This document shows positions 1,847-15,197 of a stretch of DNA of 64,000 nucleotides, one piece after another. The notes under the pieces are model-generated. The model searched no databases. It had not been told where the DNA came from and saw only the letters and a program-made list of their open reading frames with translations. The DNA lies in assembly GCF_006345805.1 (NCBI RefSeq), contig NC_042997.1:125488001-125552000 (forward strand), read 5' to 3'. This stretch comes from Octopus sinensis. Taxonomy: Eukaryota. Both the position numbers and the translations under genes were made by a program. The stretch's first letter is position 1; each line of letters opens with the position of its first letter.

Positions 1847-1875
1847 AACTTTTGAAGGTTGTTTTTTATGTTTAT

Positions 1876-1922
<47 letters not shown>

Positions 1923-1958
1923 TATATATATAAACATAAAAAACAACCTTCAAAAGTT
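1847..1958. repeat. Fold-back palindrome: 28-bp inverted arms around (TA)n
   Basis: aacttttgaaggttgttttttatgttta (1847-1874) is the exact reverse complement of 1931-1958. Confidence 0.9.
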
Positions 1959-2479
1959 TTTTTTGCCACCCTATATTGATTAATTATGAATTTTCTGGTT
2001 ACTTCCGTAATGGAATCGACGGCTTATATTTATTTGCTGCCGATAAATTTGGCGCGAGTGCGATGATTTGAAAATTTTAGGTCAGATATTACCTTGGCAG
2101 GGTCGGAAATGCCTCGTGAAAATATCTGTTCCGACTTGGGCTATTTCTTACTGAAGAATCTGAGGGCCTATGGAAGATTGGCTTGATTTAATTTAATCAG
2201 GTTAGTTTACCATTAAACAGCAGATGAAACGGTGCATCGTATAAGAAATTACAGGGTAAATGTTTTTTAAATTTTCTCCTGTTTACGGAATTGATTTTTA
2301 TTTGCGGTTGAAGCTTTGGCTGTTATTTCTAGTGGGTGAATGGCCTATTATGGCCGTTCCTTGATTGTTGATGTTGAACTTAAAAATGGTCTATGACTAT
2401 TTAATTTTTTCCCACTAGGCCGCTGGTGGCAAAAAAATTCTACAAAATTTTTTTTTGCCACCCTATATTGATTAATTAT
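1951..2479 (+). mobile_element. Terminally redundant HHR-bearing non-coding element (retrozyme-like / Penelope-derived)
   Basis: 37-bp direct repeat at 1951-1987 and 2443-2479 (period 492), internal HHR, (TA)n on the right and a TA fold-back on the left, no long ORF. Confidence 0.7.
2143..2249 (+). ncRNA. Type I hammerhead ribozyme, intact core
   Basis: Stem I atttctta/taagaaat; CTGAAGA 2151-2157; stem II atctg/cagat with long GU-rich extension; GAAA 2226-2229; stem III cgg-tgca-tcg; GTA site, predicted cut after 2241. Confidence 0.85.
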
Positions 2480-2494
2480 ATATATATATATATA

Positions 2495-2640
2495 AGGAAA
2501 ATTCACGAAAAAAACAAAAGACGAAGACAGGTGGTGTAGAAAACAAACAGATGTATTAGTATAACGCTCGGAAAATGAAAAAGTCTTTTACGCTTCGAGC
2601 CTATTCTCTTTCACAAAAAGGAACACAGAAAGAAACAAGG
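2495..2640 (-). mobile_element. Short Penelope-like terminal fragment with degenerate minimal HHR
   Basis: Minus strand ...gaaagagaataggctcgaagcgtaaaag resembles GAAGAG..CTCGAAACGT motif of other copies; between TA/TG tracts. Confidence 0.45.
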
Positions 2641-2922: not shown

Positions 2923-3507
2923 GAAGGCGGTGAGCGGGCGAAATGCTTAGCGGTATTTCGTCTGCCGCTACGTTCTGAGTTCAAATTCCGCCGAGGTCGA
3001 CTTTGCCTTTCATCCTTCCGGGGTCGATTAAATAAGTACCGTTTATGCACTGGGGTCGATATAATCGACTTAATCCGTTTGCCTGTCCTTGTTTGTCCCC
3101 TCTGTGTTTTGGCCTTTGTGCGTAGTAAAGAAATAGGTATTTCGTCTGCCGCTACGTTCTCAGTTCAAATTCCGCCGAGATCGACTTTGGCTTTCATCCT
3201 TTCGAGGTCGATTAAATAAGTACCAGTTACGAACTGGGGTTGATATAATTGACTTAATCCGTTTGTCTGTCCTTGTTTGTCCCCTCTGCGTGTAGCCAGT
3301 AAAGAAATAAGAAACGTTAGTACGCAGGGCGAAATGTTTAGCGGTATTTCGTCTGTCCTTACGTTCTGAGTTCAAATTCTGCCGAGGTCGACTTTGCCTT
3401 TCATCCTTTCGGGGTGGATAAATTAAGCACCAGCTGCGCACTGGGGTCGATCTAATCGGCTGGCCGCCTCCCCCAAAATTTCAGGCCTTGTGCCTAGAGT
3501 AGAAAAG
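2923..3507 (+). mobile_element. SINE family B, trimeric composite with 17-bp TSD
   Basis: Three copies of core gttctgagttcaaattccgccgaggtcgactttgcctttcatcc; TSD aatataagagagtgaaa at 2906-2922 and 3508-3524. Confidence 0.9.
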
Positions 3508-6015: not shown

Positions 6016-6950
6016 AGAGGAGAAGGAGAAGGAGGAACGTTTCCATACATGTACCATTAGTGTTGTAGGCTTTCCCCGACTACTGGTGTAATTGATAAGC
6101 ATGATATTCCACTTCAATATTTGTTGAACTTGAATGAGTGAACAGAGAGAGAGAAACTTCCCTAGGCTACAGAGAGATAAGATGGTCGATATGCCACGTT
6201 GCATGGTTCATATATTTTCACTGTTGATCGAACAAGCGAGCAGCTTATGCATACGGCGCTGTTCAGCCAAAAAAGCCTCCACAGGGAGGATCCGGCGTGT
6301 GCTAGTCGTTCATTCAATCCCTCCTTACTGATCGTCCGGCGGATTGCAGCAGTTGTTTTCTCGTTAAAATACGGCAGTCTCGAAAGACAAATGTTATCCC
6401 TGGATGGGTGGGTCTTGCTAGATACTCTGATATTTAAGTGTTTGGTGAAAGAAACTAAATAGCCATTCTCTCTAAGGATTGTTCAGAATTCTATGGTGAT
6501 GGTCTTTTTGTCACCTGTCTTGTTGCATTTACTATGTATCTTATGGATCATATTTCTTACTTAAACTGACTTAGTTCTGATGGGCAGGGCTGAATTATAA
6601 GGCACATTTAGGCCCCTGCGTACAAACTTTTTCTTAAAGTAAATGGTAATGTATCCTTTTCTCTGTAACTTTGAATTCAAAGTCAAGTAGAGATAAAGAA
6701 CTTGTGATATTCGAATTTTATGCGCTCATTAATGTTATTGAATATGTTGCATATTTTAAAGACCTTCGCGTGGGAGAATGTCAGCAAGAGGATATCTTGT
6801 AATCATCTGACGAAAAAAAGGCGGAACAATGACGGGTGTTGAATGTCCTGGCTGTTAAGTGGACCGTGTGTGCATGCATATATATATTTATCCTGTTCAT
6901 GCTATTTTATTAGCATTATTACGCGTTTGAGAATAAACTATTTCTGTATC

Positions 6951-9665: not shown

Positions 9666-10545
9666 AGGGCCATGAAGAAGAATTACGCAAGAAAGGACTA
9701 CAAAATCAACTCTATGCAGCCTCAACAGAATCTGCCGGAAAAAATAGGTGATATTGACTGATTAAAGGAACACTAAAAAAGAGACCGAGAGCACTATGCT
9801 GGCAGCGCAAGATCAAGATTTGGCCATGAACTGGGGGTGGGGTCAACCTTAAGAATGAGCAAGTGTCTCCGCTGTGCTGCATCTGCAATAGAGTGCATGA
9901 AACCATTGCCCATATCACGAACGAATGCCCAAGACTTGCCCAAAATCACTACAAGTTGTGGCGACACGATCAGGTAGTGAAAGTGCTGTATTGGAAACTG
10001 AGCGAAAAGTGGTGCTAGAGTAAGGGAAGACGTGGTATGAGCACAAACCGCAGAGAGTGACGACGTCGGAAACTAGCAAAATCCTCCGGGATTTCCCAAT
10101 CCAAGCAGATCAGGTCCTAGAGCATAACAGACCTGGCCTAGTGGTGGTGGTCAAGGTGCACGACATATGTTATATAGTTGTTGCATACCGCTTTCACCCA
10201 CGAATAGTCAAGAAGGAAGGCGAAAAGATAGATAAATACAACCCTCTTAAGTACGAAATAGCCCGGCTATGGCAAATGAAGAAGCTGAAGATAGTGTGCG
10301 TGTCAATTATTGCTGGGTCCTTGGGAACACCATTAGAAGGTATCAAGGGAAATATACAGGAAATTGGAATAGAGTACCCAGTAGAACTGTTACAGAAGGT
10401 TTGCCTCCTTGGCACGGCCAGAATAATCAGGAAAGTATTAGATAGCTAAAAATAACGGATAGCATGGTACCATAGGCTACATGGAGCAAGCCCGCTACGC
10501 ATGCAAGACTCCGGGAGCTCCAATAAAACCTGTGATAAAGAGAAT
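9665..10545 (+). mobile_element. 5'-truncated R4/Dong-like LINE (CCHC finger + restriction-like endonuclease), disrupted
   Basis: Translations give LKKETESTMLAAQDQ, CxxC...ETIAHITNEC...RHD, HNRP(G)LVVV, KEGEKIDKY, LQKVCLLGTARIIRKVL; starts right after (AAT)n and ends in taataatgata. Confidence 0.85.
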
Positions 10546-10554
10546 TAATAATGA

Positions 10555-12990
10555 TAGGTACAAATCTAAAACTGTATATTGAGTACTGAATTTGCAAATT
10601 TCTTATCATTGGTCCATAGAAGTGTTATTTCTCTCTTATTTTTCTGACCACGTCAGTGTCCATCGGGTGGCCGACTTCCACAACACAGCATTTTATACTA
10701 CAGTTACACATGTATGTATATCAGGTCTGTTGTGCTTATATTTTATTGAGGTCTTCACTGGTACATTCTACCAGTATTTTTTTTTATTATGAGTGGCTAT
10801 GGCTTCTACCATATTGTGAGTTCATTGTGTCCTAGCTGCGTCATGTCTCATCGGTAGATAATAGCGTGATGACATTTTCAGACAACTGCTTATGATATGC
10901 GTGATATCTTCAGTGTAAAGCTATCACGCCTTTGCTGCATCTCTATCCCTTTTGTGCATCAGGTATTTGGTTGATATTTCCTGTTCCTGGATTGCAAACG
11001 CATACCCTTCAAAGTGGGAGGTAGTAATCTGGCTATTGGTCGATGATAAACTGCTTTGATGATCGATGTTACCATCATCGCGGAGCTTTCTACTAACATA
11101 TCCATGCCTAGTCTTCTGCTCATACAGGCTCATCCTTTCATCTGGTGATATGTTGCGGTAGAGTCGTGCGACTTCTTTCAGCATGTATTCTAGGTTATCA
11201 GACAATGAGTGTTGCTCAAAGAGCTGCCTTCTAAGTCTTATGATGTTATCAACCTCATGTATGCAGACTTGGTCAAGGGATCTACTTCGACACTTGGTGG
11301 TTAAAAGATGTTGCCGGGGGGGGGGGTATGATGCGATATTCAAAAGCATTTTAAATCGATGTTAAGCCTCTACCGCCTTGTTTTCGTTTTAGGTAGAGGC
11401 GGTGTACACCACTGTTTATGCGGAAATTATGTGTGCTTGTTAGTATTTTTCGGCTTTTCACATCAATGGCTCGGATCTCATCAAGCGTCCAATCAAGCAT
11501 CCCTAATGTTGGTATAGGTACTAGCACTGAAAACACATTGTTGGTCACTGTTTTATTGAATGCAGGGAGTTCTAAGGTCCAAATTTTCTTTATTCAACTG
11601 TTATATTCTTTAGTGATAGTGTTTTGTTGCAGGGACCATTATAAGATATATTTTCATCCACCCCTAGATACCTGTAATATTCCTCGTCAGATACAGGGCA
11701 AACAGTCAAATGATTGATGGAGATATTGCTAGTTTGGTTTATAGTCTTCCCCCTTTTCACAATCATATAACATTTATCTTGACCAAACTCCAACCCTACA
11801 TCCTTTGAAAATGTTGTAATTAGGTCAAGGCTCTTTTTCATCTCATGCATATTCTTCGCATAAAGTTTTAAGTCATCCACAAAGAAACAGTGTGTAATTT
11901 TAGTATTTCTGTTACCTTGTGAACCAGTGAGATACCTTCAGACCGCTTTAACAAAGGGTTTACAGAAAGTATACACAATATCACAGAGAGGCTGTCTTCT
12001 TGGAATATGCCTTTGCGATATTGTATTCTATCGGTGATAATACAGTCACTCTTTGCGTTTAATTTCAAGATGGTGGTCCACGATGAAGTCAGGTCAGCTA
12101 TGGCTTTGACTATTCTCACTAGAACTTTAGCAAGCTGAAGGGCTTCTAGCATCCATGAGTGGGGAACAGATTCAAAGGCCTTCTTGCAGTCTAGCCACAT
12201 TGAAACTAGGTTGTTCCTATTCTCTCGCATCTCAGACAACACAGTTTTGTAGATTAACAATTACTCGGTACATCCTTCTTCCCAGCCGCATGTTTTGATG
12301 TGATAATGTTATTGGTTTCACAATGGTCGTAGAAAAAGAGGTTTAAACACGCTGTATATATTTTGTACATTAAGTTCTGGCATGCAATTGGCCGGTAGCT
12401 TTTTTGCCATGTGGGTGGTTCTGCATTTGGGGATCAATTTTGTCTCTGCCAGAGCTAGCCGGTGTGGTATGCTACTGTTCCCAATGAAAGCTTGCCGATA
12501 CAGATTGATAAGATATGGTCGATAGAATGTTTGCTTCTTGTACCAATATCCAACAATCAAGTCTCTTCTAGGAGCTTTTCTATCTTGGAGTTTCTGAATC
12601 AGAGTTTGCAAGAGTTTCACTATCAATGTTGTATGTCTTGGATGTAACGCAGAAGTAATAACTTTTTCGGATTTCTCCCAGCCACAGAGCATCCTGGTTA
12701 AATTCCTCCTCTTCACTCCAGATTTTCCTCCAGAAGGAGTCTATGTCTTCTTGTGAAGGAGCTTCCATAATGTTTACTACTCCTCCTCTCATGTCTCTAT
12801 CTTCTGATGTCGAAGTTTTTCACTGACAGCTTTTAGCTCCTGCTTGAGGGTAATCAGTTTGAAAGTGAGTGTATTCTTTTTGATGTCTCCAAACATCACA
12901 TCTATCTCCTTCTTCACTTTCTGTTGGTGGGACTTTCTCCTCGACAAAGTCCTTCAAAGCCAAATTTCTTTTTCTCGGGAAATTTCAGTA
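10555..12990 (-). mobile_element. Decayed R4/Dong-like LINE with RT domain (frameshifted)
   Basis: ORF pieces WLDCKKAFESVPHSW, GIFQEDSLS, MDDLKLYAK, YRYLGV, RLYLKRKQGGRGL, YAFAIQEQEI in collinear order. Confidence 0.9.
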
Positions 12991-13917: not shown

Positions 13918-15197
13918 TATTTCTTTATTGGCCACACAGGGCTGAACACAAAGGAGACAAAATACAAAATAGGGTTTTTCTTTTTGGGAAGGAAAAAAAG
14001 GGTGGGGTAGAATTTCGATCAAAAAGGATCGTGGAACAAAATGGGTGGAATCCGATCAATAGGGATCGTGTATCACAGAAATGTCATGGTGTAAAATGGG
14101 AAACAGATTAGGTTTCTCTGTGGAAAGAAAAGCCTACAGAAAAGACCACGGTAACCGCAGGCAATGTCATGCAAAAAGCATATTATAGTAAGTGACTCTC
14201 TTTTTTTTTCTTTTTTTTCTTGTTCATAGGATCATGCTCAAGGTGGCTCCGTCATTCCCTCGTGCCATCCTTGCTACATTCACTCATATTTTTTTGAAAC
14301 ATTAACTAAACAAAACTTCCATATCTGCTCTCACCTTCCCCTTCAAGCGATACTTGAAGAAGTTGATGAGAGATTCACCTGAGAGGAAAGTGTTTGTCTC
14401 TAGAACTTTCAGACACATCCACCATACACATTCTTTCACCATAGCCACAAGTACGATGAAAATGGCTCTTCCTTCCCATTTCAGGGAAGCGCGACAATAT
14501 TCATGATAGACTCAGTTGATAAACTGACTCGTCCCATACTCGATAGCAGTCGTTCGACATAAGCCCACAGGTCGGAAATGGTTGAACACTGTACGAGTGC
14601 GTGCAGAACGGTTTTGTCGCTCTGAACGCATCTCGGGTAGGTCGGCCCCGTCTTTCTCGAGCCATGCTTATAGAGCTTATCCCGAACGGGTGGCGCTTCT
14701 CGAGAGCACTGCCAGGCCAGGGATTTCTGGAAGTTGTCCATAGGTCCCGTCCCGAAATTCGTCTTGAACAGGCGGGTCAGGTATTCCTCATCGACGCCCA
14801 GGTTCACTCCGAGATCGTTGTCGTATCTCGCCCCCATTAATCCCCAATAGAATGCTTTGGTTGTGCTGCAGTCGCCGAAGGTCGACCCGGGACGGCAGAC
14901 TTGGTCGAGAGCAGCGCGACACACGCAGTGCCATTCGTCCTTTTTCGGCCTCATTTTGATCCACAACTGCAGTTTGGTCATGGAGACGAGTTGTGGGAAA
15001 GTGCTTCTCACAAACGGCGACCACATCTATTCGCCGTCGTCTATGTAGAGTCGGAGATGTCGCAGTCTCAGCGCGTGTCTGCGCATCATCAGCCACGGCA
15101 TGTCCAGCCGACCATTGGAAATCATCCTTTCCACAAAAAGCGGAAGAGAATGCGTTCTAGTTTGGTGATGGTCGGGTCGGGATAAGGCACGACGGTC
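13918..15197 (-). mobile_element. 5'-truncated L1/Tx1-like LINE 3' portion
   Basis: LERILFRFLWKG, PVRDKLY and zinc-finger-like PRCVQSDKTVLHALVQC; 3'UTR ends aataaagaaata; (GATA)n on both sides. Confidence 0.75.

What the first reader, a model, noticed from the sequence alone, without database searches (positions are those of the whole stretch)
1951..2479. Retrozyme-like unit: intact hammerhead in a 492-bp terminally redundant non-coding element
Seen: a canonical core (CUGAAGA, GAAA, GUA site), an 8-bp stem I and a stem III capped by palindromic TGCA. Stem II is extended by a 14-bp helix (agattggcttgatt/aatcaggttagttt) that pairs fully only if G-U is allowed, which points to RNA-level structure. 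The ends carry a 37-bp direct repeat. Known: Penelope-like elements carry type I HHRs, and metazoan non-LTR retrozymes make small circular RNAs. Inference: this is a slightly-more-than-unit-length cDNA copy of a ~492-nt circular or tandem self-cleaving RNA mobilised by a Penelope RT.
Basis: partly seen in the sequence, partly recalled or inferred. Interest (0 to 1): 0.85.

Follow-up and report, generated by a model that had tools for sequence, protein, structure and literature searches.

The report
Octopus hammerhead retrozyme with Penelope ends
A 492-base non-coding repeat in what is likely an octopus genome carries a complete hammerhead ribozyme motif and ends like those left by Penelope-like jumping genes, so it is likely a new family of 'retrozyme', a known kind of genome parasite predicted to spread through a self-cutting, possibly circular RNA.

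Summary
A complete type I hammerhead lies at 2143-2249; it is the only hit in the window, with no equal in 60 shuffles. The ends repeat at 492-bp spacing (36/37 bp; 31 bp exact). The unit is non-coding and a high-copy repeat. Contigs of 4 of 4 runs join its end back to its start, and variants in other copies spare the ribozyme: 0 of 9 break a pair or hit the core, against 3.2 expected. Two copies are predicted to fold into a double hammerhead. New here: a 27-bp inverted copy of the flank joins the unit where it resembles the unit's own end (13/18, P about 4e-4), as expected from a longer-than-unit cDNA; both flanks are (TA)n. The host is likely Octopus. Best reading: a monomeric insertion of a non-LTR retrozyme moved by a Penelope-like RT, a link already proposed in print. 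Cleavage, circular RNA, full tandem arrays and the partner element are not shown. The scan met similar Penelope-type units on other DNA, but not this sequence. New member of a known kind.

The parts
1847..1873 (.). Left flank stretch that is duplicated in inverted orientation at the insertion's 5' junction
   Evidence: Exact reverse complement of 1932-1958
1873..1932 (.). Left (TA)n tract, likely the target site; holds a 29-bp direct duplication with an AA interruption
1932..1958 (-). 27-bp inverted copy of 1847-1873, likely made during integration; its end resembles the unit's own end (1939-1956 vs 2431-2448, 13 of 18)
   Evidence: depth at 1932-1955 is about 1/40 to 1/130 of the next bin in X6 and X4, about 1/9 in X8 and 0 in X18, so it is not a regular part of the family
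1951..1987 (+). Left copy of the terminal repeat (exact part 1957-1987, 31 bp); start of the unit
1957..2447 (+). One whole repeat unit (490-492 bp, by T-run length), non-coding, 36% GC, high-copy
   Evidence: Joints 2447/2448 to 1957/1958; longest stop-free frame 55 codons and longest Met-start frame 34 in a head-to-tail pair
2135..2255 (+). Type I hammerhead ribozyme domain: helix I 2143-2150/2242-2249 extended by 2135-2138/2252-2255 across an internal loop; core 2151-2157 and 2226-2229; predicted cut after A2241
2158..2225 (+). Helix II (5 bp, A-U first pair), a 7x7 internal loop (2163-2169/2214-2220) and a 19-position hairpin 2170-2213 with 5 G-U pairs in its 14-bp core
   Evidence: variant 2174 A>T closes the single mismatch in 16% of depth in X6
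2229..2240 (+). Weak helix III with palindromic loop; predicted to form a 12-bp duplex with a second copy (double hammerhead)
   Evidence: hairpin -0.1 vs duplex -17.5 kcal/mol; free two-molecule fold -81.7 vs 2 x -33.7; variants 2234A and 2235T, at equal depth in X6, keep the loop palindromic
2425..2462 (+). 13-bp hairpin at the unit's end, overlapping the tail; candidate recognition signal for a Penelope-like RT (speculative)
2443..2479 (+). Right copy of the terminal repeat = Penelope-type 'tail'; 3' end of the insertion, merging with (TA)n
   Evidence: tail of 30-40 bp described in PMC8557442, PMC11167929 and PMC3846280
2477..2494 (.). Right (TA)n tract
2495..2640 (-). Separate high-copy repeat sharing the (TA)n site; about 2585-2620 on the minus strand reads as a decayed minimal Penelope-type hammerhead (not part of the unit)
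   Evidence: Own depth profile and variants; majority letters at 2593 (96%) and 2605 (94%) in X6 give GAAA and a 4-bp stem II; no significant alignment to the unit

Best explanation
This is a 1.06-unit copy of a high-copy, non-coding ~491-bp repeat that carries a complete type I hammerhead motif, and it is likely a non-LTR retrozyme that a Penelope-like reverse transcriptase copied from a head-to-tail (tandem or circular) RNA into a (TA)n tract of a likely octopus genome. Steps: (1) inferred: tandem copies are transcribed by read-through; (2) predicted: neighbouring hammerheads pair their palindromic loops III into a double hammerhead and cut after A2241, releasing ~491-nt monomers, while a lone copy mostly misfolds; (3) inferred from other animals: a host ligase closes monomers into circles; (4) inferred: a Penelope-like endonuclease nicks (TA)n and its RT starts at the tail (right end, 2479), copies one whole unit and runs on past the start into the next unit's end; (5) inferred: that overhang paired with a similar stretch of the left flank, and repair left the 27-bp inverted flank copy. 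Shown here: the motif, the repeat, high copy number, head-to-tail joints in contigs, variants that spare the ribozyme, and the junction anatomy.
For: Motif far above chance. 20 of 24 listed runs hold the stretch, 19 with half or more of its words, under 5 organism codes and 10 studies. 17,867 records were laid in X6 on 1932-2640 (both repeat families together), with totals of 2.7e5 to 1.4e6 at unit positions against 25-80 for single contigs; this is no copy number, but hundreds to thousands of copies are likely. Head-to-tail joints: X6 5 contigs (one with 35 letters on the shorter side at exactly 492), X18 1 contig of 184 nt with 77 letters before and 107 after the joint at the run's whole depth there (109), X8 1 contig, X4 one in table 5c. 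The lowest per-place totals are alike near the start, middle and end (271k at 2019, 289k at 2237, 291k at 2293), with no rise to the 3' end as 5'-truncated copies would give (weak). Of 26 listed variants in the unit, 5 break a predicted pair against 9.0 expected (P 0.04); in 2135-2255, 0 of 9 break a pair or touch the core against 3.2 (P 0.01). 2234 G>A and 2235 C>T have equal depth in X6 (86,443; 25-28%) and keep loop III palindromic; 2237 T>C turns G-U into G-C. A double hammerhead is the free two-molecule minimum. Junction resemblance 13/18 is reached by 47 of 127,964 window 18-mers, self-hits included. No ORF, no tRNA. Tail, (TA)n bias and inverted 5' pieces are Penelope marks (PMC8557442 passages). 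Monomers of retrozyme families are common and dispersed (preprint). O. vulgaris has 31 recently active Penelope-like families (PMC13282606 passage).
Against: No cleavage or RNA evidence was obtained; the two 'RNA' runs are only guessed to be RNA and are contigs. The exact end repeat is 31 bp, the length of the words that the run index samples and likely of the assembler's words, so many dispersed copies with the repeat at both ends could be stitched into a false head-to-tail contig; joints with sides of 24-31 letters may also reflect T-run length alone. No listed contig spans two whole units or two hammerheads (longest listed piece on the unit 178 letters; 32 of 20,293 pieces shown). Only 24 of 292 loose ends and 40 of 55 variant rows were shown, and the right tail (2463-2503) was skipped as a repeat, so an ORF-linked form could be hidden. 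The variants come from a few subfamilies and are not independent; a 1-nt deletion at 2138 (22% in X6) and a loose end behind 2139 in X4 were not in the pairing test. The first pair of helix II is A-U, not the conserved G-C, and helix III has only 0.05-0.10 pairing probability in the monomer. In the preprint, 8 of 9 predicted Xenopus dimers did not cleave. No autonomous partner was identified.
Confidence: 0.72

Rival explanations
1. The unit is the pseudo-LTR (terminal repeat) of an autonomous, ORF-bearing Penelope-like element; this locus is a truncated insertion with a tail at both ends, and no independent small RNA exists.
For: Tail of 31-37 bp, (TA)n target and an inverted 5' piece are all marks of autonomous Penelope insertions. 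pLTRs carry hammerheads. Many retrozyme families are related to pLTRs. 268 of 292 loose ends were not shown and the right tail was skipped.
Against: The tail runs straight into the unit's start at family-wide depth (bins 1956-2027); in an ORF-bearing element the tail leads into the ORF. None of the 24 best-supported loose ends shows a foreign upstream partner at high support. The hammerhead is not of the minimal pLTR type (helix I 8+4 bp, 4-bp helix III, no bulge after A9). No ORF adjoins it in the window.
Confidence: 0.14
2. The family is a dispersed, terminally redundant non-autonomous Penelope element (SINE-like) that is copied from linear read-through transcripts of monomers such as this one; arrays are rare, no circle is made, and the hammerhead is a passenger or only trims the RNA.
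For: A monomer with the tail at both ends is itself a template for an identical daughter. The 31-bp exact repeat could give the head-to-tail contigs by assembly alone. Hammerhead cleavage was not needed for insertion by the anole Penelope protein in vitro (PMC11167929).
Against: The left junction resembles unit sequence upstream of the tail (13/18), which a monomer transcript would not supply. One X6 contig crosses the joint at 492 with 35 letters on the shorter side at low depth (10). Selection to keep a palindromic loop III fits partners in tandem.
Confidence: 0.11
3. A satellite-like DNA repeat spread by DNA-level recombination, in which the hammerhead is a dead relic.
For: High copy number; both strands fold better than shuffles; contigs cannot show RNA.
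Against: Variants spare the core and helices, with G-U-tolerant changes. A lone 1.06-unit copy with tail and inverted junction inside (TA)n fits retrotransposition.
Confidence: 0.03

Closest known systems
Metazoan non-LTR retrozymes (coral Acropora 220-245 bp, mussel Mytilus 350-390 bp, axolotl 330/350 bp; Cervera and de la Pena 2020, PMC7229834; read: Results and Discussion, parts 2-4 of 6, supplement unreadable)
   Same: Non-coding, GC under 50%, a type I hammerhead with short helix III and palindromic loop, head-to-tail organisation, a self-paired predicted circle that leaves the hammerhead nearly free to fold (constraint costs 1.5 kcal/mol), and proposed Penelope mobilisation with more-than-unit cDNA.
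   Different: Larger unit (491 bp, above their 150-450 bp). Helix II starts A-U and is capped by a 7x7 internal loop and a 19-position hairpin rather than a short loop. The host is likely a cephalopod, which my searches did not find reported. Circular RNA and cleavage are shown there, not here.
Non-LTR retrozymes as non-autonomous Penelope derivatives (Li, Clavereau, Pollet 2026, bioRxiv 10.64898/2026.07.22.740005; read: abstract to discussion, parts 1-3 of 5; supplements closed)
   Same: Same conclusion on origin; unit sizes of 51-972 bp include this one; dispersed monomers are described.
   Different: 35 species, none a mollusc. Their argument is co-occurrence and sequence trees; this locus adds junction anatomy (tail, TA target, inverted 5' piece). 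Their 'active' criterion of two consecutive hammerhead units was not seen directly here.
Pseudo-LTRs of endonuclease-positive Penelope-like elements (Penelope/Poseidon, Neptune, Hydra clades; PMC4209133 parts 1-2 of 4, PMC8557442 passages, PMC11167929 parts 1-2 of 4, PMC3846280 passages)
   Same: 30-40-bp tail, AT-rich or (TA)n target, inverted piece at the 5' end, microhomology at the 5' junction, hammerhead with palindromic loop III.
   Different: No RT/GIY-YIG ORF. The hammerhead is full-sized rather than minimal. The inverted piece is flank DNA, not a truncated element copy.
Hammerhead satellites of newts and cave crickets, and Schistosoma Sm-alpha (newt case seen in PMC7229834; cricket ~500-bp unit recalled, not from a call)
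   Same: Tandem non-coding units of a few hundred bp with one hammerhead each; dimer-dependent cleavage in newts.
   Different: No sequence comparison was possible; these are now grouped with retrozymes.

Membership tests
Non-LTR retrozyme (animal) | Type I hammerhead with intact core in the unit | tested here: met
   no core change among the 26 unit rows of the 40 (of 55) variant rows shown; the 10.1-11.1 pair is A-U
Non-LTR retrozyme (animal) | Occurs as tandem arrays of two or more whole hammerhead-bearing units | tested here: inconclusive
   Head-to-tail joints in contigs of 4 of 4 runs and junction resemblance, but no piece spans two units and a 31-bp exact repeat can mislead contigs; the window copy is a monomer
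Non-LTR retrozyme (animal) | No protein-coding capacity | tested here: met
   Longest stop-free frame 55 codons and longest Met-start frame 34 across the head-to-tail pair
Non-LTR retrozyme (animal) | Unit of a few hundred bp with GC under 50% | tested here: met
   490-492 bp, 36% GC; above 150-450 bp (PMC7229834), within 51-972 bp (preprint)
Non-LTR retrozyme (animal) | No hammerhead-bearing LTR pair as in plant LTR retrozymes | tested here: met
   The only end repeat is 37 bp and holds no hammerhead; primer-binding site and polypurine tract were not searched for
Non-LTR retrozyme (animal) | Multi-copy in the genome | tested here: met
Non-LTR retrozyme (animal) | Predicted stable, self-paired circle | tested here: met
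   -133.9 kcal/mol, z -5.1, 60% paired; the minus strand also scores z -4.1
Non-LTR retrozyme (animal) | Self-cleavage as monomer or dimer | not testable with these tools
   Only predicted
Non-LTR retrozyme (animal) | Expressed as unit-length linear and circular RNA | not testable with these tools
   No run on record as RNA was listed; all runs laid are contigs
Non-LTR retrozyme (animal) | Target-site duplication longer than 4 bp, when present | tested here: inconclusive
   Both flanks are (TA)n, so a duplication cannot be read
Pseudo-LTR of an autonomous Penelope-like element | Adjacent ORF with RT and GIY-YIG endonuclease | tested here: inconclusive
   None beside this copy and none among 24 of 292 loose ends shown; other copies could not be read whole
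Pseudo-LTR of an autonomous Penelope-like element | Minimal hammerhead (helix I 4-5 bp, helix II 7-8 bp, bulge after A9, little or no helix III) | tested here: not met
   Helix I 8+4 bp, helix II 5 bp, no bulge, 4-bp helix III against the description in PMC4209133; some Penelope families do have a small palindromic helix III
Pseudo-LTR of an autonomous Penelope-like element | 30-40-bp tail at an end of the insertion | tested here: met
   31 bp exact, 37 bp with one mismatch
Pseudo-LTR of an autonomous Penelope-like element | Insertion in AT-rich or (TA)n DNA | tested here: met
   This locus; one X18 contig leaves the unit at 2372 into (AT)n
Pseudo-LTR of an autonomous Penelope-like element | Inverted 5'-truncated element copy at the 5' end | tested here: not met
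   An inversion is present, but it copies the flank, not the element

The most novel reading that the evidence does not exclude
Octopuses carry thousands of copies of a retrozyme that yields a ~491-nt circular RNA whose hammerhead is switched off as a monomer and on as a dimer, and that uses an unusual architecture: helix II runs through an internal loop whose GCC (2166-2168) pairs with GGC (2139-2141) of loop I as a Watson-Crick pseudoknot in place of the usual loop-loop contact. Its insertions would record rolling-circle copying by a Penelope-like RT (tail, overshoot into the next unit, inverted flank), making the long-proposed retrozyme-Penelope partnership testable junction by junction in a cephalopod. 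The pseudoknot has only weak support: 2139 G>A and 2168 C>T have equal depth, one contig each, in X8 and X18, but differ in X6 (29% vs 4%).
Probability: 0.2. Interest if true: 0.65.

Novelty: new member of a known kind. Interest (0 to 1): 0.4.

Why it matters
Animal retrozymes are a known route to abundant circular RNAs, but which retrotransposon moves them and whether the template is a circle are still argued from co-occurrence. This copy shows Penelope-type ends and a junction that points to a longer-than-unit cDNA, so a survey of all junctions in the family would test the rolling-circle, Penelope-driven model directly. It would also extend retrozymes to cephalopods: five literature searches pairing octopus or cephalopod with hammerhead, retrozyme or Penelope terms listed no such report, and the 2026 O. 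vulgaris repeat annotation does not mention ribozymes in its text or its one supplement. Repeat databases were not available to check, and the supplements of PMC7229834 and of the preprint could not be seen.

Tried and rejected
No whole genome is held for this window, so copies, arrays and ORF links could not be counted. Rfam gave no hammerhead hit. No second copy of the unit lies in the window. A metagenome pattern scan gave 9 loci; none aligns to the element or reads as a hammerhead, so they are chance. No RNA holder was listed; X8 and X18 are guessed RNA, kept as contigs, and say nothing on expression, level or circularity. The idea that the left flank (1817-1846) is the tail of an older relative was tested and dropped (P 0.07-0.29), and 1500-1873 does not align to the unit above shuffles. 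The decayed frame at 6162-6800 (minus) looks Penelope-like only by recalled motifs: Pfam, the Atlas and a homologue search gave no support, so it is not used as the partner. One X6 contig (depth 25) joins 2075 to 2242, the first base after the predicted cut; with 3 internal joints the chance is about 0.02-0.04, so it is a single, after-the-fact hint. No tRNA; the bacterial promoter scan is irrelevant here and at chance level. An Atlas search with a repeat-derived frame gave nothing usable. The paper on dimer cleavage by Penelope-associated hammerheads (PMC5785218) is not held; it is known here only through a review passage. The scan's own records held no look-alike of this DNA.

Full report
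Verdict. It is a complete type I hammerhead inside a ~491-bp, non-coding, high-copy repeat with Penelope-type ends. The kind is known (animal non-LTR retrozymes), so this is a new family member, likely in octopus, with a well-preserved insertion junction. Cleavage and circular RNA remain untested.

Observation. The hammerhead parts lie as stated: helix I 2143-2150/2242-2249, core 2151-2157 and 2226-2229, helix II 2158-2162/2221-2225, helix III around the palindromic loop 2233-2236, and GUA at 2239-2241. A descriptor scan found it as the only hit on both strands of the window; 60 shuffled windows gave 0.017 loose and 0 strict hits each. The 14-bp helix holds 5 G-U pairs and belongs to a 19-position hairpin. 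The end repeat is 36/37 identical at 492-bp spacing, with 31 bp exact. Folding z-scores are -3.6 (domain), -4.9 (whole stretch) and -5.1 (circle; minus strand -4.1). Rfam misses the motif. The first pair of helix II is A-U, not the usual G-C.

Host. No genome is held. A repeat-derived frame at 497-862 matches predicted proteins named from Octopus vulgaris (61% identity) and O. bimaculoides (74% over a third of the query); the third of 3 hits has no name. The host is therefore likely an octopus.

Other copies. 20 of 24 listed runs hold the stretch, 19 with half or more of its words, under 5 organism codes and 10 studies; none is on record as RNA. I laid 4 of these runs on 1932-2640: X6 and X4 (DNA guessed), X8 and X18 (RNA guessed); all are contigs. 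Cover is very deep from 1956 to about 2459 and falls away left of 1956. Totals at unit positions in X6 are 2.7e5-1.4e6 against 25-80 for single contigs; the tool warns that this is no copy number, but hundreds to thousands of copies are likely. All 4 runs show a joint from the unit's end (2437-2451) back to its start (1953-1963). The clearest are an X18 contig of 184 nt with 77 letters before and 107 after the joint, at the run's whole depth there, and an X6 contig at exactly 492 with 35 letters on the shorter side. Caveats: the exact repeat is 31 bp, so an assembler using 31-letter words could stitch such a path from dispersed copies; the shorter joints may reflect T-run length; no listed piece spans two units (32 of 20,293 pieces shown); 24 of 292 loose ends and 40 of 55 variant rows were shown; the right tail was skipped as a repeat. 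None of the shown loose ends points to an ORF-bearing partner.

Selection on the RNA. Of the 26 shown variants in the unit, 5 break a predicted pair against 9.0 expected (P 0.04); all 5 lie in 2094-2108, outside the ribozyme. In 2135-2255, 0 of 9 break a pair or touch the core, against 3.2 expected (P 0.01). Changes at 2150 and 2221 go to G-U, 2237 turns G-U into G-C, and 2174 closes the hairpin's one mismatch. 2234 G>A and 2235 C>T have the same depth in X6 and keep loop III palindromic. These come from a few subfamilies and are not independent events; both loop changes are transitions; a 1-nt deletion at 2138 and a loose end at 2139 were outside the test.

How the ribozyme likely works. In the monomer, helix III is weak (-0.1 kcal/mol; pairing probability 0.05-0.10) and an inactive fold wins by 1.5 kcal/mol. 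Two copies fold freely into a double hammerhead at -81.7 against 2 x -33.7. This fits dimer-dependent cleavage as described for short-helix-III hammerheads (PMC4209133; PMC7229834; review passage). It is a prediction; 8 of 9 predicted Xenopus dimers did not cleave in the preprint. Helix II is capped by a 7x7 internal loop and a long hairpin, unlike canonical type I motifs. A pairing of 2139-2141 with 2166-2168 is possible; the matching changes have equal depth, one contig each, in X8 and X18, but run at 29% and 4% in X6, so it stays a guess.

The insertion. Both flanks are (TA)n. The right end is a 31-37-bp repeat of the unit's start, matching the 30-40-bp Penelope tail that marks where the RT starts (PMC8557442; PMC11167929; PMC3846280). 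At the left end, 1932-1958 is an exact inverted copy of the flank 1847-1873 and is not a regular part of the family. Where it meets the unit, it matches the letters that precede the tail at the unit's end at 13 of 18 places; 47 of 127,964 window 18-mers do as well, self-hits included. The simplest reading is that the cDNA ran past one whole unit into the next unit's end, and that this overhang guided a template switch onto the flank. That needs a tandem or circular template and does not depend on the contig joints. It is one locus, read after the fact. The left tract also holds a 29-bp direct duplication that this model does not explain.

Neighbours. 2495-2640 is a separate, deeper repeat on the other side of the (TA)n; its minus strand reads as a decayed minimal Penelope-type hammerhead, and the majority letters in X6 give GAAA and a 4-bp stem II. 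Penelope elements tend to insert beside each other (review passage). A decayed frame at 6162-6800 looks Penelope-like by recalled motifs only, and four searches did not confirm it. O. vulgaris has 190 Penelope-like families (6.8% of the genome), 31 of them recently active (PMC13282606 passages and supplement), so a partner is plausible but not identified.

Comparison. It works like, and most likely is, an animal non-LTR retrozyme (PMC7229834, parts 2-4 of 6 read; PMC7761336, passages). Motif, size class, GC, lack of ORF and copy number are met; arrays are inconclusive; cleavage and circular RNA could not be tested. The Penelope link is proposed in those papers and argued in a 2026 preprint on 35 species without molluscs (parts 1-3 of 5 read). 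As a plain pseudo-LTR it fails the minimal-hammerhead test and shows no ORF, but that rival is not excluded. Searches listed no cephalopod retrozyme; PMC10886601 names octopus only in a reference. Repeat databases were not available, and the supplements of PMC7229834 and of the preprint, which could list octopus, were not seen. The scan's notes describe similar Penelope-type units in other genomes but not this DNA.

Scores. Retrozyme monomer from a head-to-tail template 0.72; pseudo-LTR fragment 0.14; linear dispersed non-autonomous element 0.11; dead satellite 0.03. New member of a known kind; interest 0.40.

Noticed in passing
window 2495-2640: A second, deeper high-copy repeat on the far side of the (TA)n; about 2585-2620 on the minus strand reads as a decayed minimal Penelope-type hammerhead, and the majority letters at 2593 and 2605 in all four runs give GAAA and a 4-bp stem II.
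   Followed up: partly
window 1873-1932: The TA tract is a 29-bp direct duplication with an AA interruption in each half, sitting inside an inverted duplication of the flank; origin unexplained.
   Followed up: partly
window 2075 and 2242 (run X6, one contig, depth 25): A copy in which 2075 is joined to 2242, the first base after the predicted cut; could record a cDNA that ended at a self-cleaved 5' end.
   Followed up: partly
window 2372 (run X18, one contig): A copy leaves the unit at 2372 into (AT)n, so ends are not always at the tail.
   Followed up: no
window 2139-2141 and 2166-2168: Possible Watson-Crick pairing between the internal loops of helix I and helix II; matching changes have equal depth in two runs but differ in frequency in X6.
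   Followed up: partly
window 6162-6800, minus strand: Decayed frame that looks like the thumb-linker part of a Penelope-like ORF by recalled motifs; not confirmed by Pfam, Atlas or homologue search.
   Followed up: partly
window 10024-12740: Broken frames of a non-LTR retrotransposon on both strands; 11868-12257 (minus) has a weak RVT_1 match (E 3e-4, under the curated cut-off). A second RT-like remnant lies near 14481-15185.
   Followed up: partly
window 2952-3480: Two to three tandem copies of a ~184-bp SINE-like repeat.
   Followed up: no
window 2338-2359: A GC-rich 8-bp hairpin with palindromic arms followed by a T-rich run inside the unit.
   Followed up: no
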